DNA of 24,758 bases from a virus. Its lineage: Duplodnaviria; Heunggongvirae; Uroviricota; Caudoviricetes. Numbering within the stretch: the first letter of the stretch is position 1; each line of letters opens with the position of its first letter. Both the position numbers and the translations under genes were made by a program. The stretch lies in the IMG/VR virus record IMGVR_UViG_2698536536_000002; one strand, 5' to 3'. This document shows positions 4,752-24,758 of this stretch, one piece after another. A model generated the notes under the pieces. The model saw nothing but the letters and a program-made list of their open reading frames with translations, was not told the origin of the DNA and made no database searches.

Positions 4752-4809
4752 AAAAACGGCGGCAGAGCAGTCACGGAGTAAAACTGATACCGCCAAACGT
4801 CACCAGAAA
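4752..4809 (-). ncRNA. dicF: DicF-like small regulatory RNA (ftsZ-targeting antisense sRNA)
   Basis: Minus-strand sequence UUUCUGGUGACGUUUGGCGGUAUCAGUUUUACUCCGUGACUGCUCUGCCGCCGUUUUU (reverse complement of 4752-4809) matches the remembered DicF sequence. It ends in GC-rich sequence plus a U-run and sits between the YdfB/C-like ORF and dicB, as in the Qin dicB operon. Exact ends are approximate. Confidence 0.55.
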
Positions 4810-9140: not shown

Positions 9141-10538
9141 TTATGCTTCATGTTGCTTTTTGAGATCGCTTCTAGCATAGCTCCACTCAATAATGTTGTC
9201 GGGTCGTTGCTGATCGAAAAGGATACGGGATTCAATACCATTACCTAAAAAGCTGGTATTCCCATCTACGTAAGAAGCTATCCCTTGTGAACCAACACGA
9301 AGAATATTTTCTAATGGCTGCTTTGTTCTTGCTGCATCGCTAAGGAGATATAAACCCGGGTACGTTTTGTTAGCACGGTGAAAAAAAAGTTCATTGTCAA
9401 AACACATGACGATGATTATTTGTCCCGACATGAGATCGGAGAGCATTTCAGTTGGCAGATGCAAACTCATAAATGGTCGAGACAAAGGGTCAAAGAATGA
9501 ATCATTTATATTCACAACAGGGCTTTTTATACCGAGACTATCCATCCATCCATTGAAGGCAACAAAGCCCATTTCAGAATCACGGTACATACCTAAGAAC
9601 AAACATTCATCAATAGTATCAATTGCCCAATTTTTTCCTCCGCGAATAATCTCCCACATTTTAACTAAGCGGTGGGTATAAAATTCAGACGGATGATCTA
9701 TCTCATTGATTTTAACTTTAGACTGATGAAAGTTGTCAAAGCCCTCGCCAGTATTAATCGCCTCCAGAACATTCATGCCACGAATGATTTGCCTTTTTAT
9801 GCGATTAAATTGCTTAACATCATTATCAGGCATATTGTTAATGAAGTTTTCTTCAAAGTGCGGACATTCTGAGATAACAGAAAATTCAGCAGCTTCATAA
9901 AGCTCATTATTCTTTTCACCTGTTTTAACTTCCACGAGCTGGAAGCCATCCAGTAGATTAAAGGTGACTAAATCTCCCACATGAACAAATGTGCTCATGT
10001 CAGAGACAATCGCTACGGAGTGTTTGTCCTGGTTGATAAGATCGGCTGCGACCATAGAATCAATTATGTTATCTTCTGATAGATTGTCATTGCTTGCATT
10101 AATAGGTAAACGCCGCAAACTAGAGTGTTCTTCATCAAGAATGCTCCAAATTATTGAGTCAATACAACGGCGAAGAATAAGAATTTCAAATTTTTTTAAA
10201 CTTATTTCATCAATACACTTTTCTTTATTTTCTTTATCCTTGTTTCGATGGTGCTCTTTTTTTTCAGTTTCCAATCTTTTTATATCTCTCAGCCGAATAA
10301 TAATCTCAAAAGATATGATTTTTTGTGAGTCTTTCCAATTTTTGAGACAGGTTTCATACTCTGCAAGAAAATCCTCATCATTGGAAGGTAGTTCTTGAAT
10401 TGGATTCCCTCCCCTTATCATTTTGGCAAGTGCATGCATTAAAGATACATAATGAGGTGATAAAATTGTCCAAAACTTCCTAAACGGTTTGTACTTTTCA
10501 AGAAAAGTTGACTCATCAGTATAATTCATCATAACCAA
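9141..10538 (-). CDS. Hypothetical 465-aa protein, possible PD-(D/E)xK-type nuclease; downstream partner of the AbiH-like gene
   Basis: Long AT-rich ORF with GAGG RBS. Central motif …AIVSDMSTFVHVGDLVTFNLLDGFQLVEVKTGEK… fits the D…(D/E)xK pattern of restriction-like nucleases (inference only). Co-oriented 83 bp downstream of the AbiH-like gene. Confidence 0.7.
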   Translation of the reverse strand: MVMMNYTDESTFLEKYKPFRKFWTILSPHYVSLMHALAKMIRGGNPIQELPSNDEDFLAEYETCLKNWKDSQKIISFEIIIRLRDIKRLETEKKEHHRNKDKENKEKCIDEISLKKFEILILRRCIDSIIWSILDEEHSSLRRLPINASNDNLSEDNIIDSMVAADLINQDKHSVAIVSDMSTFVHVGDLVTFNLLDGFQLVEVKTGEKNNELYEAAEFSVISECPHFEENFINNMPDNDVKQFNRIKRQIIRGMNVLEAINTGEGFDNFHQSKVKINEIDHPSEFYTHRLVKMWEIIRGGKNWAIDTIDECLFLGMYRDSEMGFVAFNGWMDSLGIKSPVVNINDSFFDPLSRPFMSLHLPTEMLSDLMSGQIIIVMCFDNELFFHRANKTYPGLYLLSDAARTKQPLENILRVGSQGIASYVDGNTSFLGNGIESRILFDQQRPDNIIEWSYARSDLKKQHEA

Positions 10539-10621
10539 ACCTCATTCCTCTTATCTATTTTCCTCAAGGTATAAAATACCAGCCTTTTTTACATAATTAT
10601 AGTTATAATATGAAGTCTCAT

Positions 10622-11491
10622 TCAGATATCTTCATACTGTACGTAAGAAATATTTGAGCCTCTGATACCATAATCTTCTAAACTGCCTGATTTTTTCTCA
10701 CCTCTATATAAAGCAACTATCCATCGAGCATTTTCTTGGATGCTTTTATTTATTTCAGTAAAGTATTCACCGTCAACTTCGGCGAGCGAGTGGCCTAAAA
10801 CGATGACCTCGTCCACATTTTTAAGCGATGAGAAAAAAACGTTTTCTTCTTTAATTATGTCTTCGCTGGGCTTGAATGTATTACCGAAGTATTCGTTTAT
10901 TCTGTCGTATGCCTCTGCTATTCTTGTATCTTGATCCGGTCCTATATATGGATTTAGTGACTTTTCCACCCTAAAACTATGACCAAGTATGAGATCGTCA
11001 TCGTAACTACAATTGCCGTGAATATGTATGATTTGCTCGTCTGGAACGGCATAGATCTGCTGCAAGGTATTTGTATAATTAAATGAAAAATAGATGCTTT
11101 CTCTTGGTATGGGCGGGATGTATTGCTTAGGATTGTAAGCATCGGCTATGTTAATCCCTTTAACCCAATCAGCGAATTGCTCCTTCAAACGAGCTGACAG
11201 CATTTGTGTGATTTTATTTACTTCATATTGGTAATCGTGATGATAAGCATCGCTCCAATCATCGGTATTGTATGAAGCCAAAAATATCTCACTGTTTTGA
11301 AGGATAAGCTCATAATCAATTTCACCTAAAGCATTTTCTAACTCATTCCACTCGTCCCCAGCAGGAATGTATTCTTCTATCGCGTCATATAGATCTTGGT
11401 CATTTTTTTCTACATACGACTTAAAGTGCTTGTATCCTGTTGGTAAGCCATGACGCATGTCAAATCCATTTCCTATTATGTAAAGCCTCAT
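10622..11491 (-). CDS. AbiH-like abortive-infection family protein
   Basis: From the ATG at 11491 (AAGGGA RBS) the product begins MRLYIIGNGFDMRHGLPTGYKHF…, which matches the N-terminal signature I associate with AbiH-family proteins. AT-rich codon usage. The track's longer ORF begins at 11542. Confidence 0.6.
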   Translation of the reverse strand: MRLYIIGNGFDMRHGLPTGYKHFKSYVEKNDQDLYDAIEEYIPAGDEWNELENALGEIDYELILQNSEIFLASYNTDDWSDAYHHDYQYEVNKITQMLSARLKEQFADWVKGINIADAYNPKQYIPPIPRESIYFSFNYTNTLQQIYAVPDEQIIHIHGNCSYDDDLILGHSFRVEKSLNPYIGPDQDTRIAEAYDRINEYFGNTFKPSEDIIKEENVFFSSLKNVDEVIVLGHSLAEVDGEYFTEINKSIQENARWIVALYRGEKKSGSLEDYGIRGSNISYVQYEDI

Positions 11492-11807
11492 TGTTTTTCC
11501 CTTAGTCGAATTGTATAAAAATACTAACATGGCCTGCTCCACGTTGACTACTATCCCCTCCTTTGAGTAATGCCTTCATCAGATGTAACAACATTTGCGA
11601 GCTTCCACAGTTCGCTCAAAGCGGACTAGAAGGTTAGCTTGCGTCGGACTTGGCGTATTTAAAGAAGTGCTGGTGGAGACTGGTTGTTGTGTTCCATTTC
11701 TACAGAACAAAATCACAGAAACTATACCCAATAGTTATATTGAATCAATGATGAGACAGCCTCATATTTATCAGGACTGGTGTACGTCCAATACAGGAGG
11801 TTGTCGT

Positions 11808-11897: not shown

Positions 11898-12106
11898 TTA
11901 TATTGGCGAGGTGACGTGAGTTAAGTAGAATTGCTGCGGGTGCTTGAGGCTATCTGCCTCAGGCATGAACACCAAAGGCAGATAGAGAAAAGCCCCAGTT
12001 AACATTACGCGTCCTGCAAGACGCTTAACATTAATCTGAGGCCAATTTCATGCTAGACACATGTAGGTTAGCCTCTTACGTGCCGAAAGGCAAGGAGAAG
12101 CAGGCT

Positions 12107-12262
12107 ATGAAGCAGCAAAAGGCGATGTTAATCGCCCTGATCGTCATCTGTTTAACCGTCATAGTGACGGCACTGGTAACGAGGAAAGACCTCTGCGAGG
12201 TACGAATCCGAACCGGCCAGACGGAGGTCGCTGTCTTCACAGCTTACGAACCTGAGGAGTAA
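12107..12262 (+). CDS. hokD: Hok/Gef-family type I toxin (HokD/RelF-like)
   Basis: 51-aa product MKQQKAMLIALIVICLTVIVTALVTRKDLCEVRIRTGQTEVAVFTAYEPEE matches the remembered HokD/RelF sequence. AAGGAG RBS at 12092-12097. Flanked by a 10-bp-stem hairpin upstream (11950-11985) and a 9-bp hairpin (12270-12291) plus terminator downstream. Confidence 0.85.
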   Translation: MKQQKAMLIALIVICLTVIVTALVTRKDLCEVRIRTGQTEVAVFTAYEPEE

Positions 12263-15387: not shown

Positions 15388-15463
15388 ATTCTGCTCCCGG
15401 CCCTTTAGCTCAGTGGTGAGAGCGAGCGACTCATAATCGCCAGGTCGCTGGTTCAAATCCAGC
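15388..15463 (+). tRNA. tRNA with CAU anticodon (tRNA-Ile2/ileZ-like, or Met)
   Basis: 76-nt cloverleaf drawn by hand: acceptor GGCCCTT/AAGGGCC, D-stem GCTC/GAGC, anticodon loop CTCATAA, T-stem GCTGG/CCAGC, T-loop TTCAAAT, 3' ACCA. Confidence 0.85.
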
Positions 15464-15564
15464 AAGGGCCACCATCACAAACCGCCATTAGCTTATCAGG
15501 AAGAGCAGACGACACGATAACAGGGTTGTTGGTGCGGGGGCGGGTCCCCGATGGCGGTCCATTA

Positions 15565-15641
15565 TCGGTATTCAGCGTTGTTAGCTCAGCCGGACAGAGC
15601 AATTGCCTTCTAAGCAATCGGTCACTGGTTCGAATCCAGTA
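15565..15641 (+). tRNA. tRNA-Arg (UCU anticodon; argN/argO/argU-like)
   Basis: 77-nt cloverleaf: acceptor GCGTTGT/ACAGCGC (one G-U), anticodon stem ATTGC/GCAAT with loop CTTCTAA, T-stem ACTGG/CCAGT, T-loop TTCGAAT, 3' GCCA. Confidence 0.85.
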
Positions 15642-15761
15642 CAGCGCGCCATATTCATTCTTCCAGATTCCTTCCGGCAGAGCCTTATACTGGAATATAC
15701 CTGGCTCAGGATATTGTTGAAAACATAATATGTTTGTCAAAAATAAAAGTTCTGTTAAGTA

Positions 15762-16115: not shown

Positions 16116-16645
16116 ATACATATCTGGATTATCACCTGTTACGGTAAAAAGTGATTGCTTACTGTTTTTGTGAATGGCATTGCAGCAGCCGGATAATGTC
16201 AGTGCTGGCTGACGGTGTGCTGGTGGCGGGTGTGGTGGTTGCTTTCCCGTTGCTGAAAAAGAAAACGCCAGACTGTTAGCCGGGTATCAGTTAGCGGGAG
16301 AAATTTTTAAATACTTCACAATTCAGGCGGTTGACTGTTCTCTGGTTTGCGGGGAGTTTGTTAAAAGAAACTGGCATGGTGAATCCCCCTGTGCGGAGGG
16401 GCAATCAGCGAGTAGGTATATGGGATAATCGCGGATTCAGGTGCTGGTACTGAATTCACCGGGAGGCACCCGGCACCATGCACTTAAATAGATTCTCTCC
16501 ACATTATGGATATTCTTTCAGAATATCCCACGCAGACTTTGTGTAAATGTTAACAAATGTGCGTTTTATTTGATCTGATTCGCTGTTTGAGCGTCCAAAA
16601 CAACGGTATATATAATCCTTTACTATATGACATATGTGAGAAAAA

Positions 16646-17074
16646 ATGGGTTTTCGTAGCGCATCAATTCTTACGTTGATTATTAGTGGGATTATTATCG
16701 GGTGCACTGATGCTGTATCGACAAATTATCATGACCGTACATCATCTTACTCCGATAAAACAATAGAGACACAGTATGTGAGTTCATCTGAACGTACTTC
16801 TGATGTTAGTGAGGATATCCGTCTGTATGCCCATCAAATCAAGAGCGCCATCGAAAAACAGTTCGGGGATGCGAGTAAGTATTCAGGAAAAGAGTGTACA
16901 CTGAGAATGCATATGGCCCCGAATGGCCTTCTACTGGAGGTTAAAAGAGAAAGTGGAGACCTCGATTTATGTCGTGAAGCGATGAATGCGATAAAGAATG
17001 CTGATATACCTGCCCCCCCTTCGCCGGAAGTATATAAAGTATTTCAAAATGGGGTGCTGGATTTTAAACCCTGA
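16646..17074 (+). CDS. Lipoprotein with TolA C-terminal (domain III)-like domain
   Basis: Signal peptide plus lipobox (…LIISGIIIGC). C-terminal …YAHQIKSAIEKQFGDASKYSGKECTLRMHMAPNGLLLEVKRESGDLDLCREAMNAIKNADIPAPPSPEVYKVFQNGVLDFKP closely parallels the remembered C-terminus of E. coli TolA, including both cysteines and the terminal LDFKP. Candidate promoter TTGAGC-18-TATAAT at 16587-16616. Confidence 0.75.
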   Translation: MGFRSASILTLIISGIIIGCTDAVSTNYHDRTSSYSDKTIETQYVSSSERTSDVSEDIRLYAHQIKSAIEKQFGDASKYSGKECTLRMHMAPNGLLLEVKRESGDLDLCREAMNAIKNADIPAPPSPEVYKVFQNGVLDFKP

Positions 17075-17224: not shown

Positions 17225-17620
17225 GTGGGATTAAAGAAAATCGTTATGTTGACTTTTTGGGGCGGTTTTGTTGCGGGATGCACACCTTTACACCCTTCAG
17301 ATTGCCACAAAACTACTGCTACAGGTAGTTGCAGTTCAGGACGCTGGGATGATCAGGATGAATGGGGGGCGCAAGCGCGGGGAATCAGAGCTGCAATTAA
17401 TGCCAAACTTGATGAGCCGCATAACTGGAAAGGGAAAATATGCAGGTTGCATATGGAATTCTCTCAGGATGGCACGGCGTTAAAAATATCTACCAGTAAC
17501 GGTGATAAAGCCTATTGCGAAGCGATAAAGTCCGCAGCTCATAAAGCCAAATTTCCGGCCTTCAACAATCCGGAAGTCTACAGAGATTTTCAGAAATCTG
17601 GCTTTGACATGCGAGGTTAG
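17225..17620 (+). CDS. Lipoprotein, diverged paralogue of the TolA domain III-like lipoprotein
   Basis: GTG start with GAGGAG RBS. Signal peptide plus lipobox (…FVAGC). C-terminal domain keeps the same Cys…Cys spacing and PEVY motif (…ICRLHMEFSQDGTALKISTSNGDKAYCEAIKSAAHKAKFPAFNNPEVYRDFQKSGFDMR). Confidence 0.65.
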   Translation: MGLKKIVMLTFWGGFVAGCTPLHPSDCHKTTATGSCSSGRWDDQDEWGAQARGIRAAINAKLDEPHNWKGKICRLHMEFSQDGTALKISTSNGDKAYCEAIKSAAHKAKFPAFNNPEVYRDFQKSGFDMRG

Positions 17621-18674: not shown

Positions 18675-18779
18675 AAACAATCCTCTCTATTGTATTTAAC
18701 TATTCCTTGCCTGATTCAACAGGCCGGGACAGATAAACATATCCAGGGTTCAGAAACCGATAAACCCTGATAAATATCC

Positions 18780-19313
18780 ATGAACGTAAAAATCAGATAC
18801 GGCCTGTCGGCTGCCGTTCTGGCACTGATTGCCGTCGGTGCGCCTGCGCCTGATATTCTCGACCAGTTTCTGAATGAAAAAGAAGGTAACCACACAACGG
18901 CATACCGCGATGGTTCCGGCATCTGGACCATCTGTCGGGGTGCCACGGTGGTGGATGGAAAACCCGTTTTTCCCGGTATGAAACTGTCGAAGGAAAAATG
19001 CGACCAGGTTAACGCCATTGAACGGGATAAGGCGCTGGCATGGGTGGAGCGCAATATTAAAGTGCCACTGACCGAACCACAGAAAGCGGGTATAGCGTCA
19101 TTTTGTCCCTATAACATTGGCCCAGGTAAGTGTTTTCCGTCGACATTTTATAAGCGGCTGAATGCTGGTGATCGAAAAGGCGCCTGCGAGGCGATTCGCT
19201 GGTGGATTAAGGATGGTGGCAGAGACTGCCGTATTCGTTCCAATAGCTGCTTCGGGCAAGTTTCGCGTCGGGACCAAGAAAGTGTGCTGGCGTGCTGGGG
19301 GATAGACCAGTGA
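18780..19313 (+). CDS. SAR endolysin (T4-lysozyme-like muramidase, GH24)
   Basis: 177 aa. N-terminal weakly hydrophobic Gly/Ala-rich signal-anchor-release segment ([16 protein letters not shown]). Catalytic E…D…T context (…[22 protein letters not shown]…). Follows a pinholin, as in phage 21. Confidence 0.85.
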
Positions 19314-19318
19314 ATAAC

Positions 19319-19831
19319 ATGTTTGCTAATGCTTGGTTGAAAGTTGCCACGGTTTCGGCTCTCCTCATTGCCTCATTTGTTGCAGGGAGTGTGTGGACGG
19401 AACGAGCATGGGAAAAGAAATGGGCGGATCGTAATAGTGAAGAATCCTCTCAGGCTGTGAACGCTCAGATAGCTGCTCGTATGATTGAACAAGGGCGAGT
19501 GATCGCTCGTGATGAGGCTGTTAAAAATGCACAAGAACAGGCTGCAAAAGCGGCTGCGAATGTTGCTGGCCTGTCTGCCACTGTTAACCAGCTGCGCACC
19601 GAAGCAACAAAACTTACCGTCCGCTTGGACGCTGCAAAGCACACCTCAGGTCTTGCCGTTGCCGTCGGAAGCAAAACAACCGCCACCAACGCCGCGATGC
19701 TTGCCGACATGCTCGGAAGTATTGCAGAAGAAGCTAGATACTATGCTGGGCGAGCTGATGAAAGTTACTTGGCTGGAATGACATGTGAACACATTTACGG
19801 CTCAGTGAGGGACTCAAGTAGTGTTAAATAG
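19319..19831 (+). CDS. Inner-membrane spanin Rz-like (i-spanin)
   Basis: N-terminal TM segment ([21 protein letters not shown]) followed by an Ala/Gln-rich coiled-coil periplasmic domain. Starts 6 nt after the endolysin stop. Contains an embedded +1-frame lipoprotein ORF. Confidence 0.65.
19560..19781 (+). CDS. Outer-membrane spanin Rz1-like (o-spanin) nested in Rz
   Basis: Embedded +1-frame ORF with lipoprotein signal and lipobox ([12 protein letters not shown]) and a Pro-rich mature region (…[15 protein letters not shown]…), the classic Rz1 architecture. Confidence 0.65.
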
Positions 19832-20019
19832 CTGGTATGATGATGTTGAGAAGGCGGCACAGCAGGAGCTGTAATCGACGAGTGCTAATCTAGCACAATT
19901 GAGTTCACAAATTGTCTACTTTTGCTATATTGCAACCGATGCCAACAGCCTTTTTTGAGCAAAAATCATAAATGTTATCGTGTTGGCAGTTTTTTTCTTT
20001 GACGACACGGAATGATTTT

Positions 20020-20442
20020 ATGTCAGAAGTAGCTGTTGAACTTGAAGAGGATTCTTGGCCTGATTTTTTCCCGGTTGGAGTACCGCCGAAATCAGCCGTC
20101 CCTGCTGAGGGCGAGTTTTTCCGTTTGGTAAGGTCTAATCCACCAACCCCTGCATGTTTCCTCTCTACACATGAAGAGTATCCGCAGCGGCACAAAAAGT
20201 ATCGTGGGGAAGCACTTCAGTGTGTCTATGGAACATCATTCTTTTCAGAATCGCGCGGGGCTACGGATGCAAAAGCTAAATTTCCTGCAGCTCTTGGTCA
20301 TCGACTCGTTGCTAGTGGTCAGATCACCCCCGTTTTCGGAGTAATGAAAAAAACATTTGCCGATCCAGCGCACTACACAATTTGGCTTAAGCGTAATTGT
20401 GCTATTCATGAACATTTTCACTGTATAGGAGAAGGCGTATGA
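20020..20442 (+). CDS. Hypothetical 140-aa protein (first gene of unknown two-gene cargo operon)
   Basis: ATG at 20020. Stop overlaps the start of the next gene (ATGA at 20439-20442). No recognised domain. C-terminal HEHFHC cluster could bind metal (speculative). Confidence 0.5.
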   Translation: MSEVAVELEEDSWPDFFPVGVPPKSAVPAEGEFFRLVRSNPPTPACFLSTHEEYPQRHKKYRGEALQCVYGTSFFSESRGATDAKAKFPAALGHRLVASGQITPVFGVMKKTFADPAHYTIWLKRNCAIHEHFHCIGEGV

Positions 20443-21731
20443 GTAACGTTTTTCTACCTAATACAATGATGGGCACTCTATGTTACAAAAGAGTTTATGA
20501 GTTCTTCGAAGAGCCTCGCTTCTTTTCAGTTGAAAATGAAGTTAGTACACTTTTTATCGTTTACTGGATTGGTGAGGATGATGAATGTGATAGTTGGTTT
20601 ATCATACCAATTTCTCCAGGGCGATTAGAGTTGATTGAAAGAAAAAGAATATGTATCCGTGATGCTTTGATTAATCAGGAGCAAAACTTTTTCTATGAAG
20701 CCCATATACCATACGATCGTACAGGCAAAGTGACTTGGCTGAGTAAAAACTTGGTTGATATATTTGAAATACCTTTGCCTGTTTCTGAACTATATATAAG
20801 TTCGGTAGTTCCAGTAATGCCAAATGGTAAACTGGGCGAGGCTATTACTTACTCAACTCATGAGATCCATTTAGAAAAAAGCTCAAAGAAAAGTGCAAAA
20901 AATTTGGTTTTAAGTCATGTGTCAAACGTATGCGACAGATTCAGCGATCTTTATGACAGAATGCTGGAGATGGCAAAGTGCAAAGATAAATTACGTCCTG
21001 TCGATGCGCGGCCTGGTTCCTTTATCATTTCTTTTAAAGCTGAGAAATTACATTCCTTTGAAGACACTTTTAAAGAATTAAGCAGGCTGATAGAACTTAG
21101 AGCTGATATTATTCCTTTTGTTTTCGAAAAGGGTATTGATGTTCCAGCTTTGACAGATCTCTTACAATCCATAGTTGAAACCGGAACGAATATGGAACTC
21201 AAAAGCAACCAGACAGGTGAATTAGCTTTTGTTATTACAAAAGCTGGTGCTGAGTTCTATTTAAAAAAATTATCACGTCTTTCTACCTCATTGGTTGGAG
21301 GGCATCAAATACCTCAAGCAGATGTCCTCGAGACAGTTTATAAATTAGTGGAAATTGTTTGGAGTGGCGAACCACTTACTCCTATTAATACTGGTTTGCA
21401 AGATAGACATATCTACTATTATAAGCATGCAGCTAAAGTTTTGGGATTACTTGATAGCTTTGGTAATGTCACAACGTCTGGTCAACAACTCGTACAAAGT
21501 GATGAGATGACTAGACATAAAATTGCAGCGAGAAAATTTGAAGTGAGTCATGTGGGATGGGCTTGGATAAATTGGGCCAGTGTTGAACATTTATCCCAAA
21601 TTGATCCTGACAGCGCTTTAGACTTTCTATTGGAGCAATGCCACTCTTTAAGTCGTGATACTATTGAACGACGTGCTACAACTATTAAACACTGGTGCCG
21701 TGAATTGAAAAATTATTATACACCTCTGTAA
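20439..21731 (+). CDS. Hypothetical 430-aa protein (second gene of unknown two-gene cargo operon)
   Basis: Long AT-rich ORF translationally coupled to the upstream gene and followed by an intrinsic terminator. No recognisable catalytic motif by eye. Confidence 0.7.
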   Translation: MSNVFLPNTMMGTLCYKRVYEFFEEPRFFSVENEVSTLFIVYWIGEDDECDSWFIIPISPGRLELIERKRICIRDALINQEQNFFYEAHIPYDRTGKVTWLSKNLVDIFEIPLPVSELYISSVVPVMPNGKLGEAITYSTHEIHLEKSSKKSAKNLVLSHVSNVCDRFSDLYDRMLEMAKCKDKLRPVDARPGSFIISFKAEKLHSFEDTFKELSRLIELRADIIPFVFEKGIDVPALTDLLQSIVETGTNMELKSNQTGELAFVITKAGAEFYLKKLSRLSTSLVGGHQIPQADVLETVYKLVEIVWSGEPLTPINTGLQDRHIYYYKHAAKVLGLLDSFGNVTTSGQQLVQSDEMTRHKIAARKFEVSHVGWAWINWASVEHLSQIDPDSALDFLLEQCHSLSRDTIERRATTIKHWCRELKNYYTPL

Positions 21732-21756
21732 AGGATAATTTTCGTAGTTAACAATG

Positions 21757-21784
21757 AACCACTGACGTCTGTCGGTGGTTTTTT
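21757..21784 (+). terminator. Rho-independent terminator after the two-gene cargo operon
   Basis: AACCACTGAC-GTCT-GTCGGTGGTT hairpin (10-bp stem, one G-U) followed by TTTTTT. Confidence 0.5.
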
Positions 21785-22045
21785 AATAGATAATTTCCCA
21801 CTTATCCACTTGATTTTTGATGGGTCCTCCAAGTGGGGGGCCTGCCACGGGGCGGGAGCGTCGCGGAAAAAGGCTAGTTTTTGCATTTCCATGGTGGCGG
21901 CAGCATGTTTGGTAATTTATTGATAATTAAAAGTTATTTCTCTTTTCAGCTGTACAATATTTTTTTCTCCCTGTCATTAGACTAGTTTGCAATTAATTGA
22001 AATATATAAATAAACCTGATTTTCACCTGCCAGATGGAGTTGCTT

Positions 22046-22581: not shown

Positions 22582-23994
22582 ATGGGTTTTTCATCAGCCC
22601 GAAATTTGGGAAGGGACATATCGGCAGGATTTTCCCCACCACGTCGCATGCCGATTTCGGAGGCTGTTAAAAAATTCATGCGTGTTCCCAAGGGGGCTGG
22701 TAACTCGGTGCCATGGGATCCTGAACTGACACCCTACATCATTGAGCCCATGAACTGCCTGGCATCGCGTGAATACGATGCGGTGATTTTTGTTGGTCCT
22801 GCGCGAACAGGGAAGACCATTGGTCTGATCGATGGATGGATTGTCTATACCATCGTTTGCGATCCTTCGGACATGCTCGTTGTGCAGATGACCGAAGATA
22901 AGGCCCGCGAGCATTCAAAAAAGCGCCTCGACAGAACGTTCAGAAGCAGTGCGGCGGTAAAGAAAAGAATGAGTCCACGTCGTAATGACAATAATGTCCA
23001 TGATAAGACGTTCAGGGATGGCTCGTTCCTTAAAATTGGTTGGCCCTCGGTCAACATTATGTCGTCGTCGGATTACCGGTTTGTCGCCTTAACCGATTAC
23101 GACCGTTTTCCGGAGAATATCGACAGCGAGGGTGATGGTTTCTCCCTGGCCTCAAAACGTACCACCACATTTATGTCCGCCGGGATGACTCTGGTGGAGA
23201 GCTCGCCGGGACGTGACATCTGCGACAGCAAATGGCGACGTAAGTCGCCTCATGAAGCGCCACCGACGACTGGTATTCTTTCCCTTTACAATCGTGGTGA
23301 CCGCCGCCGCTGGTACTGGCCATGTCCGCACTGCGGTGAATATTTTCAGCCAGCCATGGATGCCATGACCGGCTACCGTAATGAACCGGATCCCTTTAAA
23401 GCCAGTGAGGCGGCGTATCTACTTTGCCCGCACTGCAGCGGCATTATCACTGCGGAGAAAAAGCGTGAGCTCAATAGTGCAGGAGTCTGGTTGCGTGAAG
23501 GTCAGGTCATTGATTGTAACGGCAACGTTTCCGGTGAACCGCGCCGCTCCCGTATCGCCAGTTTCTGGATGGAAGGGCCAGCTGCTGCGTATCAGACCTG
23601 GGCGCAACTGGTTTACAAATTACTGACTGCAGAACAGGAGTATGAAGCGACAGGAAGTGAAGAAACACTCAGGGCGGTTATCAACACCGACTGGGGATTA
23701 CCTTATCTTCCCCGCGCCAGCATGGAGCAACGAAAAAGTGAACTGCTTGAGCAGCGGGCAGAGCCAGTTCCTTCCCGCAGTGTGCCAGATGGCGTTAATT
23801 TTCTTGTGGCGACAGTGGATGTGCAGGCGGGACGTCATCGCCGTTTTGTGGTTCAGGTAACGGGCTATGGCAGCCGTGGCGAACGCTGGATTATTGATCG
23901 TTACAACATCACGCAGTCATTGCGCGGTGACAGCGACGGGGAGAGCCAGCGAATTGATCCGGCCAGCTACCGTTCCTGGCGAGCGTTGTCGTGA
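22582..23994 (+). pseudogene. Terminase large subunit (lambda gpA-like), C-terminally truncated
   Basis: AGGAGG RBS. Walker-A-like VGPARTGKT and a Cys/His cluster (…WYWPCPHCGEYF…LCPHCSGII…) parallel lambda gpA. The ORF stops after 470 aa, against about 640 for gpA, exactly where host-like transporter sequence begins. Confidence 0.75.
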
Positions 23995-24758
23995 TGGTCT
24001 TTGCTATCTGGTTACGTATGAATCTGAAAGAAAGCCCGGTCTTTGAGAAGGTTAATGACAGCAACCAACCCACAGCAAAACCTGCACCTGCTGGTAGCAT
24101 GTTCCAGAGCAAATCCTTCTGGCTGGCAACAGGGCTGCGTTTTGGTCAGGCGGGTAACTCCGGGTTAATTCAGACTTTCCTTGCAGGCTATTTAGTGCAG
24201 ACGTTATTGTTTAACAAAGCAATTCCAACAGATGCATTGATGATTAGTTCGATTCTCGGCTTTATGACCATTCCGTTCCTTGGTTGGTTATCCGATAAAA
24301 TTGGTCGCCGGATCCCGTATATTATTATGAATACCTCCGCGATTGTGCTGGCATGGCCAATGCTTTCTATCATTGTAGATAAAAGCTATGCCCCGAGCAC
24401 CATTATGGTTGCACTGATTGTGATTCATAACTGTGCGGTGCTGGGATTATTTGCTCTGGAAAACATTACCATGGCAGAAATGTTCGGCTGTAAAAACCGC
24501 TTTACCCGGATGGCTATTTCTAAAGAAATTGGTGGTCTTATCGCTTCCGGTTTTGGTCCTATCCTGGCGGGTATTTTCTGCACCATGACGGAATCCTGGT
24601 ATCCGATCGCCATTATGATCATGGCATATTCAGTGATTGGTTTAATCTCTGCGCTGAAAATGCCAGAGGTGAAAGACCGTGATTTAAGTGCGCTGGAAGA
24701 CGCTGCGGAAGATCAACCGCGTGTTGTAAGAGCTGCGCAACCTTCCAGAAGTCTGTAA
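23994..24758 (+). pseudogene. C-terminal half of an MFS transporter (host gene fragment; ydfJ-like)
   Basis: 255-aa frame encoding about six TM helices, starting in what looks like the central cytoplasmic loop of an MFS protein (…RMNLKESPVFEKV…). No N-terminal half in the window. Stop codon at the window end. I recall the Qin integration locus of K-12 as a disrupted MFS gene (ydfJ). Confidence 0.6.

What the first reader, a model, noticed from the sequence alone, without database searches (positions are those of the whole stretch)
19980..21790. Uncharacterised AT-rich two-gene operon (140 aa + 430 aa) between Rz/Rz1 and terminase: candidate novel accessory or defence system
The two ORFs are translationally coupled (ATGA overlap at 20439-20442) and end in a clean intrinsic terminator (21757-21784). 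Their codon usage is visibly more AT-rich than the flanking lysis and terminase genes. They occupy the variable cargo slot between the lysis cassette and the terminase/cos region, where K-12 Qin carries unrelated small genes. I could recognise no domain in either protein. This is the best candidate in the window for an undescribed anti-phage or fitness module.
Basis: partly seen in the sequence, partly recalled or inferred. Interest (0 to 1): 0.8.

Follow-up and report, generated by a model that had tools for sequence, protein, structure and literature searches.

The report
Prophage-borne variant of PD-T4-10 defence
This two-gene cassette in a defective E. coli prophage is a real, conserved, mobile unit related to the validated anti-phage toxin-antitoxin system PD-T4-10, but its large protein has a different, probably DNA-binding, C-terminal part and its small protein is predicted to have an ADP-ribosyltransferase fold.

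Summary
There are two coupled ORFs: A at 20020-20442 (140 aa) and B at 20439-21731 (430 aa). They share an ATGA overlap, have their own conserved promoter-like site and end in a terminator hairpin. GC is low (B 0.37, flanks about 0.52) and dN/dS is 0.07-0.11. The cassette sits in a swappable cargo slot between Rz and terS of a truncated Qin-like prophage.

The "no domain, undescribed" reading is only partly right. B carries Pfam DUF6575 plus a weak DUF7226 match. Both proteins hit the PADLOC models of PD-T4-10 (Vassallo 2022), a validated toxin-antitoxin, abortive-infection system. A matches over its full length (60 of 62 family members hit). B matches only in its first ~130 residues (73 of 77 hit).

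An A gene lies directly upstream of every gene that encodes the B N-domain, in 58 of 58 viral loci and about 23 other lineages across several phyla. The region after the N-domain varies between lineages.

Predicted structures suggest that A has an ADP-ribosyltransferase fold. They also suggest that B ends in a tandem winged-helix domain like BrxA and the FokI recognition domain.

Most likely this is a domain-swapped variant of a known defence family. Its mechanism is inferred, not shown. Interest is moderate.

The parts
19904..19931 (+). Sigma-70-like promoter: TTCACA, 16-nt spacer, TATATT with an extended -10 TG, about 90 nt upstream of A.
   Evidence: It matches 10 of 12 consensus positions. 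Both hexamers are invariant in Kluyvera and Raoultella although the surrounding intergenic sequence has diverged. The scan count itself is not above chance, and function is not shown.
19940..19988 (+). Perfect 8-nt inverted repeat TGCCAACA / TGTTGGCA with 33 nt between the arms, lying between the promoter and the A start. It could be an operator or a 5'-UTR hairpin.
   Evidence: Found. The arms are largely conserved in the alignment. The RNA fold of the leader is not better than shuffles (z = -0.65). Its role is uncertain.
20020..20442 (+). Gene A, 140 aa. It is a homologue of PD-T4-10A (the antitoxin component) and has a predicted ADP-ribosyltransferase-like fold.
20439..20843 (+). Gene B, N-terminal domain (aa 1-135). 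It is the part shared with the PD-T4-10B toxin and corresponds to the first half of Pfam DUF6575. It always occurs with an A gene.
   Evidence: Matches to PADLOC PD-T4-10_B are confined to profile positions ~1-165 of 353 in every B-family protein scanned one at a time (27 in all; 3 had no PD-T4-10_B match); 73 of 77 members hit, best 1.9e-41. An A ORF lies directly upstream in all loci that carry this domain.
20856..21293 (+). Gene B, middle domain (aa ~140-285), function unknown. The close family has S/A-T-H-E-x-H and P..ARPGSF motifs that are not conserved in the wider family.
   Evidence: Alignments A1 and A4. In the 1.84-billion-protein search, matches that start at ~141-158 occur in proteins with other N-termini. 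No significant solved-structure analogue by Foldseek.
21300..21728 (+). Gene B, C-terminal domain (aa ~288-430), DUF7226-like. It is predicted to be a tandem winged-helix module, probably DNA-binding.
21756..21786 (+). Intrinsic terminator hairpin followed by a T-run.
   Evidence: -16 kcal/mol, z = -3.3. Sequence read.
18766..21889 (+). Mosaic exchange block: endolysin, Rz/Rz1, A, B and the terminator, shared as one piece with other prophages.
   Evidence: 98.4-98.6% identical to L001 (E. coli LR-45 Qin-like prophage) and L002, while the flanks differ. The block from Rz to the terminator is 87% identical in Kluyvera L003.

Best explanation
The cassette is a lysogen-expressed, horizontally mobile two-gene anti-phage module of the PD-T4-10 superfamily, that is, a toxin-antitoxin-like abortive-infection system. 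It is carried as cargo in a defective lambdoid (Qin-like) prophage.

Shown here:
- A is a full-length homologue of PD-T4-10A.
- B shares only its ~130-aa N-terminal domain with the PD-T4-10B toxin.
- A and this N-domain are an obligate gene pair, always in the order A then B and usually overlapping.
- The region after the N-domain is interchangeable between lineages. It can be the middle domain plus DUF7226 as here, the PD-T4-10B C-terminus, an SF2 helicase, a PDC-M63B-like domain, or nothing.

Predicted from structure models:
- A has an ADP-ribosyltransferase fold. It has an invariant aromatic-Arg on strand 1, G-x-S on strand 2 and H-x-T-x-W on strand 5, but no conserved catalytic Glu.
- B ends in a tandem winged-helix module like BrxA and the FokI recognition domain.

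Inferred mechanism: in the uninfected lysogen, A holds B inactive through B's N-domain, either by binding it or by an NAD-dependent modification of it. Infection by a sensitive phage breaks this control. B then acts through its winged-helix C-terminal part on DNA, which arrests the cell or the phage genome and aborts the infection. The toxin and antitoxin roles are transferred from the PD-T4-10 experiments, not tested for this variant.
For: - Both proteins hit the two partner models of one PADLOC system, in the same gene order.
- These hits hold family-wide: 60 of 62 for A and 73 of 77 for B.
- PD-T4-10 has two overlapping ORFs, B is toxic, A neutralises it, it works by abortive infection and it protects against T-even phages. 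The paper lists DUF6575 among its novel defence domains (PMC9519451).
- A sits directly upstream of every gene with the B N-domain: 58 of 58 IMG/VR loci and about 23 independent genome or metagenome lineages, including Acidobacteria, Cyanobacteria and Actinobacteria. The one protein with only the middle and C-terminal domains (L014) has no A.
- Defence context elsewhere:
  - a MmeI - A - B(helicase) - T5orf172 operon flanked by PLDc_2 and SIR2_2 genes;
  - a position inside a type I R-M operon;
  - a position next to giant helicase or Mrr proteins;
  - V. cholerae prophages that also carry KwaB or SduA_C genes.
- Cargo behaviour: the cassette occupies several slots, namely Rz to terS, Q to holin, and next to the integrase. 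It is replaced by other cargo in a near-identical prophage.
- It is rare in E. coli: 8 of 5426 complete genomes.
- It has its own conserved promoter-like site and a terminator.
- Both genes are under purifying selection.
Against: - No experiment exists for this variant.
- Homology of B to the validated toxin covers only about 30% of the protein. The part responsible for toxicity in PD-T4-10B is unknown and may be the part that is absent here.
- The window's own PADLOC scores are weak (A 8e-6, B 2.8e-4).
- The middle domain and the N-domain have no recognised analogue.
- B was not found in 50,697 deposited phage genomes.
- Some minimal A plus N-domain pairs sit among housekeeping genes.
Confidence: 0.6

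Rival explanations
1. Reversed polarity, as in DarTG. A is an ADP-ribosyltransferase toxin or effector that acts on DNA, RNA or protein. The N-domain of B is its antidote or regulator, and the C-terminal winged-helix part of B targets or senses.
For: - The gene order, small ART then larger partner with overlapping ORFs, resembles darT-darG.
- Minimal A plus N-domain pairs, and a tandem array of three such pairs, look like toxin-immunity cassettes.
- Residues at the expected NAD-site strands are invariant.
Against: - For PD-T4-10 the experiments show the opposite. B alone is toxic, A rescues, and A could not be deleted (PMC9519451).
- A has no conserved catalytic Glu.
- No macrodomain or other ADP-ribose hydrolase was detected in B.
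Confidence: 0.12
2. A plain addiction (stabilisation) toxin-antitoxin module that helps the prophage remnant persist, with no role in phage defence.
For: - The architecture is toxin-antitoxin-like, with coupled ORFs and its own promoter.
- It is retained in a defective prophage.
- Some minimal pairs lie in housekeeping neighbourhoods.
Against: - The nearest characterised relative defends against T-even phages.
- The pair is recurrently placed in R-M and defence-gene neighbourhoods and in prophage moron slots.
- Addiction and defence are not mutually exclusive.
Confidence: 0.13
3. A restriction-like system linked to DNA methylation. B recognises DNA through its FokI- and BrxA-like module and damages or blocks it. 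A and/or a neighbouring methyltransferase protect self DNA.
For: - DNA methyltransferases of four kinds lie next to A-B in many lineages:
  - N6_N4_Mtase upstream in Rheinheimera, Photobacterium and Vibrio, and in 6 of 58 viral loci (1 more downstream);
  - phage Dam upstream in Psychromonas;
  - MmeI enzymes in Acidobacteria;
  - type I HsdM/S/R in one metagenome lineage.
- Six family members hit a PADLOC REase_II model weakly.
- The C-terminal domain resembles type IIS recognition domains.
Against: - There is no methyltransferase next to the cassette in this window or in most enterobacterial loci.
- No nuclease motif or nuclease Pfam domain was found in B.
- Methyltransferases are common in these phage regions anyway.
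- Which region hits REase_II was not determined.
Confidence: 0.1
4. A phage lysis or DNA-packaging accessory function, given its position between Rz and terS.
For: Its position next to the lysis and terminase genes, here and in Proteus prophages.
Against: - It is absent from a 99.5% identical prophage.
- It occurs in other slots (Q to holin, next to the integrase) and outside prophages in several phyla.
- Its base composition is foreign to the flanks.
Confidence: 0.03

Closest known systems
PD-T4-10 (E. coli ECOR65; Vassallo et al. 2022, Nat Microbiol; PADLOC models PDLC04023 and PDLC04024)
   Same: - Two overlapping ORFs, small A first and larger B second.
- A is homologous over its full length.
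- The N-terminal ~130 aa of B is homologous.
- DUF6575 is involved.
- It is found on mobile elements in E. coli.
   Different: - B here is 430 aa. After the N-domain it has a middle domain and a DUF7226 winged-helix domain that do not match positions ~147-353 of the PD-T4-10_B profile.
- The window's scores are weak and the B match covers little of the profile. Standard defence finders would therefore probably not call it; this is an inference.
- The phenotype is untested.
DarTG (ADP-ribosyltransferase toxin plus macrodomain antitoxin)
   Same: A small ART-fold protein is encoded directly upstream of a larger multi-domain partner. Both are defence-associated and linked to abortive infection.
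   Different: - The roles appear inverted: A is the neutraliser in PD-T4-10.
- B has no macrodomain.
- A lacks the catalytic Glu and has no sequence similarity to DarT.
BrxA (BREX, DUF1819) and the FokI / N.BspD6I DNA-recognition domains
   Different: There is no sequence-level similarity. No BREX genes or nuclease domain are attached here.
PrrC within the EcoprrI type I R-M locus (from my own knowledge)
   Same: In one metagenome lineage A-B sits between hsdS and hsdR of a type I R-M operon. This is the position prrC occupies.
   Different: There is no sequence relation. The window copy is not linked to any R-M system.

Membership tests
PD-T4-10 defence system | Two adjacent same-strand ORFs, small A then larger B, overlapping | tested here: met
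   ATGA overlap at 20439-20442. The paper describes two overlapping ORFs.
PD-T4-10 defence system | A is homologous to PD-T4-10A | tested here: met
   E 8e-6, covering 25-144 of the 148 profile positions. 60 of 62 family members hit, best 2e-12.
PD-T4-10 defence system | B is homologous to PD-T4-10B over its whole length | tested here: not met
   Only the N-terminal domain matches. The window B matches profile positions 35-92 of 353 at E 2.8e-4. Among the B-family proteins scanned one at a time (27 in all, 3 with no PD-T4-10_B match), no match extends beyond profile position ~165.
PD-T4-10 defence system | B is toxic and A neutralises it | not testable with these tools
   This needs expression experiments. 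It is known only for ECOR65 PD-T4-10.
PD-T4-10 defence system | Abortive-infection protection against T-even phages | not testable with these tools
   This needs phage challenge experiments.
ADP-ribosyltransferase superfamily (protein A) | ART fold | tested here: met
ADP-ribosyltransferase superfamily (protein A) | Canonical catalytic triad (R-S-E or H-Y-E) | tested here: not met
   R35 and S73 are invariant, but no acidic residue is conserved. H118-x-T120 sits where the third motif would be. This placement is inferred from strand order, not from a superposition.
ADP-ribosyltransferase superfamily (protein A) | Sequence-profile match to a known ART family | tested here: not met
   No Pfam hit for any of the 62 members. 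No PDB sequence hit.
Pfam DUF6575 (protein B) | Score above the Pfam gathering threshold | tested here: met
   129.3 bits against a cut-off of 26.6, over residues 3-221. RefSeq annotates it the same way.
Pfam DUF7226 (B C-terminus) | Score above the Pfam gathering threshold | tested here: inconclusive
   22.8 bits against a cut-off of 27 for the window protein. Several close homologues and proteins that share this region pass the threshold.
Restriction-modification system | A nuclease domain or motif together with a cognate methyltransferase | tested here: not met
   B has no nuclease Pfam domain. No methyltransferase adjoins the cassette in the window.

The most novel reading that the evidence does not exclude
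A, together with the DUF6575 N-domain, would be a widespread and so far unrecognised control dyad. In this reading a minimal ADP-ribosyltransferase-fold protein with an R / S / H-x-T-x-W site binds or uses NAD (or ADP-ribose) to hold in check a partner domain. That partner domain is fused to interchangeable effectors aimed at DNA: a tandem winged helix, an SF2 helicase with a T5orf172 nuclease, or a PDC-M63B-like domain. It often sits beside DNA methyltransferases or R-M enzymes. This would make PD-T4-10-type systems enzyme-controlled (type VII-like) toxin-antitoxin defences, and A the founder of a new ART clade that acts as an antitoxin.
Probability: 0.3. Interest if true: 0.75.

Novelty: new variant of a known kind. 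Interest (0 to 1): 0.55.

Why it matters
PD-T4-10 is a validated defence system whose mechanism is unknown. A 2024 preprint surveying defence systems still lists it as two overlapping genes of unknown function. This locus and its relatives show three things.
- The family is much larger and more modular than the single E. coli example.
- The conserved core is the small protein plus a ~130-aa adaptor domain.
- The small "antitoxin" is predicted to have an enzyme fold usually seen in toxins.

Together these give concrete, cheap experiments: point mutants at R35, S73, H118 and T120, NAD binding assays, domain-swap toxicity tests, and DNA binding by the C-terminal domain. The results also indicate that current defence-finder models probably miss the commonest prophage-borne form in Enterobacterales.

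Tried and rejected
- NCBIfam and PHROGs gave nothing for either protein.
- PDB sequence searches with single proteins and with profiles gave only noise.
- Foldseek of the B model against the PDB gave no significant hit (E > 0.4). The N-terminal and middle domains therefore remain without a structural analogue.
- Pfam scans of all 62 A-family members gave only scattered chance hits and no ART family.
- tblastn of B against 50,697 phage records found no match.
- The S/A-T-H-E-x-H and ARPGSF motifs of the close family were considered as a possible catalytic site. They were rejected as a family-wide feature because they are not conserved in the broad alignment.
- The leader RNA fold was not better than shuffles.
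- Rfam found no RNA gene in 19.8-22 kb.
- I could not obtain the actual ECOR65 PD-T4-10 sequences, so comparison was only through the PADLOC profiles.
Full report
**1. The observation**

The sequence shows two same-strand ORFs.
- A runs 20020-20442 and is 140 aa. The mechanical ORF list begins at an upstream ATG at 19972, but RefSeq and all homologues start at MSE....
- B runs 20439-21731 and is 430 aa.
- Their stop and start overlap in ATGA at 20439-20442, and GGAGAAGG lies 5 nt before the B start.
- After B, an 11-bp hairpin with a T-run (21756-21786) folds at -16 kcal/mol, z = -3.3. The simple consensus scan missed it.

Composition is foreign to the flanks. GC is 0.468 for A (GC3 0.33) and 0.370 for B (GC3 0.29). 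The endolysin, Rz, terS and terL genes have GC 0.51-0.54.

Both genes are under purifying selection. dN/dS is 0.07-0.11 against the Kluyvera and Raoultella orthologues.

A promoter-like site lies at 19904-19931 (TTCACA, 16-nt spacer, TG-n-TATATT), about 90 nt upstream of A. Its hexamers are invariant in Kluyvera and Raoultella while the surrounding intergenic DNA has diverged.

**2. Setting**

The window is a Qin-like prophage at the rspB/ydfJ site.
- The integrase is at 2-1297 on the minus strand.
- The terL ORF stops being phage-like at about 23972 and runs into a ydfJ fragment. The prophage is therefore defective.
- A prophage that is 99.4-99.7% identical (strain 162.2) differs only across window 19220-21813, where it has an unrelated 229-aa reverse-strand ORF with no Pfam hit.
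- K-12 Qin has cspI, ynfQ, ynfR, ynfN, gnsB, ydfO and ynfO in this slot.
- The block 18766-21889 (endolysin, Rz/Rz1, A, B and the terminator) is shared at 98.4-98.6% with another E. coli prophage whose flanks differ.
- The exact cassette occurs in only 8 of 5426 complete E. coli genomes.

**3. What the proteins are**

B is not domain-less. It matches Pfam DUF6575 (E 1.8e-37, residues 3-221) and has a sub-threshold DUF7226 match at residues 319-420.

Against PADLOC, each protein hits one of the two partner models of a single system, PD-T4-10.
- A hits at E 8e-6 over almost its whole length.
- B hits at E 2.8e-4, but only over residues 32-89.

These weak hits are family properties. 60 of 62 diverse A homologues hit PD-T4-10_A, with a best E-value of 2e-12. 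73 of 77 diverse B homologues hit PD-T4-10_B, with a best E-value of 1.9e-41.

PD-T4-10 comes from E. coli ECOR65 and was found by functional selection. It has two overlapping ORFs, B is toxic, A neutralises it and could not be deleted, and it protects against T-even phages by abortive infection. The paper lists DUF6575 among its novel defence domains (PMC9519451). A 2024 preprint surveying defence systems still calls its function unknown.

**4. Only part of B is shared**

Among the B-family proteins scanned one at a time (27 in all, 3 with no PD-T4-10_B match), every match to the PD-T4-10_B profile lies within about positions 1-165 of 353. The exhaustive profile search found 1864 cluster representatives at E <= 1e-3. 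It shows three modules in B:
- an N-domain (aa ~1-135);
- a middle domain (aa ~140-285);
- a C-domain (aa ~288-430, DUF7226).

The middle and C-domains also occur behind other, Pfam-less N-termini. The C-domain also occurs alone.

Conversely, the N-domain is found fused to several different partners:
- the middle plus C-domains, as here;
- a DEAD/ResIII helicase, in Acidobacteria (809-811 aa);
- a PDC-M63B-like region;
- nothing at all, in proteins of 132-152 aa.

**5. The conserved unit is A plus the N-domain**

I built local HMMs for A and for the three B modules and ran them over all fetched loci. Every gene that carries the N-domain has an A gene directly upstream on the same strand. This holds in 58 of 58 IMG/VR loci. 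It also holds in about 23 independent genome or metagenome lineages, including an Oscillatoria plasmid and a Rhodococcus plasmid. One metagenome contig carries three tandem A-then-N-domain minimal pairs. The single protein with only the middle and C-domains (Haliangium, L014) has no A.

**6. Context elsewhere**

In Enterobacterales the 430-aa form is prophage cargo with two main slots:
- lysis genes, then A-B, then terS/terL, as here and in Proteus at 52% identity;
- Q antiterminator, then A-B, then holin.

In V. cholerae it lies beside the integrase of prophages that also carry KwaB or SduA_C genes.

Outside prophages it lies in defence neighbourhoods:
- a MmeI - A - B(helicase) - T5orf172 operon with overlapping ORFs, flanked by PLDc_2 and SIR2_2 genes;
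- between hsdS and hsdR of a type I R-M operon;
- beside giant helicase or Mrr proteins.

DNA methyltransferases adjoin A-B repeatedly. They do not in this window.

**7. Structure predictions**

- A conservation: invariant residues across 62 sequences are P22, R35, S73, G107, H118, T120 and W122. By strand order they fall on strands 1, 2 and 5 of the fold. No acidic residue is conserved. No sequence method links A to ART families.
- B conservation: the residues most conserved family-wide lie in the C-domain and the N-domain. The THExH and ARPGSF motifs of the close family are not conserved more widely.

**8. Interpretation**

The best-supported reading is a domain-swapped variant of the PD-T4-10 toxin-antitoxin, abortive-infection family. 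A controls B through B's N-domain, and B's variable C-terminal part delivers or targets the effect, here probably on DNA.
- Shown: the homology, the obligate pairing of A with the N-domain, the modularity, the cargo behaviour and the genomic contexts.
- Predicted: the folds.
- Inferred: which protein is the toxin, how A neutralises it, and what triggers release.

Rivals:
- reversed, DarTG-like polarity;
- a pure addiction module;
- a methylation-linked restriction-like system;
- a lysis or packaging accessory function, which is effectively excluded.

**9. Verdict**

Interest is moderate because the known relative has no mechanism, and because the ART-fold prediction for the "antitoxin" and the adaptor-domain architecture are testable leads.

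Noticed in passing
window 9141-11542 (- strand): A second low-GC cargo block (GC 0.34-0.38). It holds an AbiH-family gene (10622-11542, Pfam AbiH E 8e-69) followed by a 465-aa ORF (9141-10538) with no Pfam hit. The near-identical prophage of strain 162.2 has the same block. It is possibly a two-gene AbiH-type defence module.
   Followed up: partly
window 22582-24758: The terL ORF is cut short. Homology to related prophages ends at 23972, and the window from 23968 onward matches a ydfJ fragment. The prophage has lost all structural genes.
   Followed up: partly
L019 20851-21543 (- strand): In the sister prophage (E. coli 162.2) the same Rz-to-terS slot holds an unrelated 229-aa ORF with no Pfam match. 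It is another uncharacterised cargo candidate.
   Followed up: no
L027 7176-9663: Three tandem copies of a minimal pair, A (134-137 aa) followed by a stand-alone DUF6575 N-domain protein (~132 aa). They lie downstream of a protein of more than 1799 aa with Mrr_cat_2 and ResIII domains and a LepA-like GTPase, on a 3.7-Mb metagenome contig.
   Followed up: partly
L026 5266-12020 (also L015, L016, L018): In Acidobacteria there is a four-gene operon with overlapping ORFs: a full MmeI-type enzyme, A, B (N-domain fused to a DEAD/ResIII helicase, ~810 aa), and a T5orf172/MUG113 protein. It is flanked by PLDc_2 and SIR2_2 genes. It looks like a distinct multi-gene defence system built around the same A plus N-domain dyad.
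   Followed up: partly
L011-L013, L009-L010, L024-L025, L063, L070-L072, L075, L078, L095: DNA methyltransferases (N6_N4_Mtase or phage Dam) lie directly next to A-B in several marine gammaproteobacterial lineages and in 7 of 58 viral loci. It is unclear whether this link is functional or reflects shared cargo slots.
   Followed up: partly
L032 1-10738 (also L033): A-B, with a 381-aa B that has a PDC-M63B-like C-terminus, sits between hsdS and hsdR of a type I R-M operon. This is the position prrC occupies in the EcoprrI locus.
   Followed up: partly
window 15399-15651: tRNA-Met (CAT) and tRNA-Arg (TCT) lie downstream of the Q antiterminator. Strain 162.2 lacks the ~157-nt segment (window 15463-15619) between the two stretches that align around these tRNAs.
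   Followed up: partly
window 4757-4808 (-), 11938-12112 (+), 16345-16535 (+): Rfam matches above the gathering score to DicF, sok (beside hokD) and the sRNA STnc100. These are ordinary for Qin-type prophages.
   Followed up: no
window 16646-17074 and 17225-17620 (+): Two ORFs whose counterparts in the sister prophage are annotated by RefSeq as TolA and TolA C-terminal-domain proteins. They lie between the tRNAs and the holin and are not explained.
   Followed up: no
window 19940-19988: A perfect 8-nt inverted repeat (TGCCAACA / TGTTGGCA) lies between the promoter-like site and the A start and is followed by a T7 run. It is largely conserved in Kluyvera and Raoultella. It could be an operator for autoregulation or an attenuator.
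   Followed up: partly
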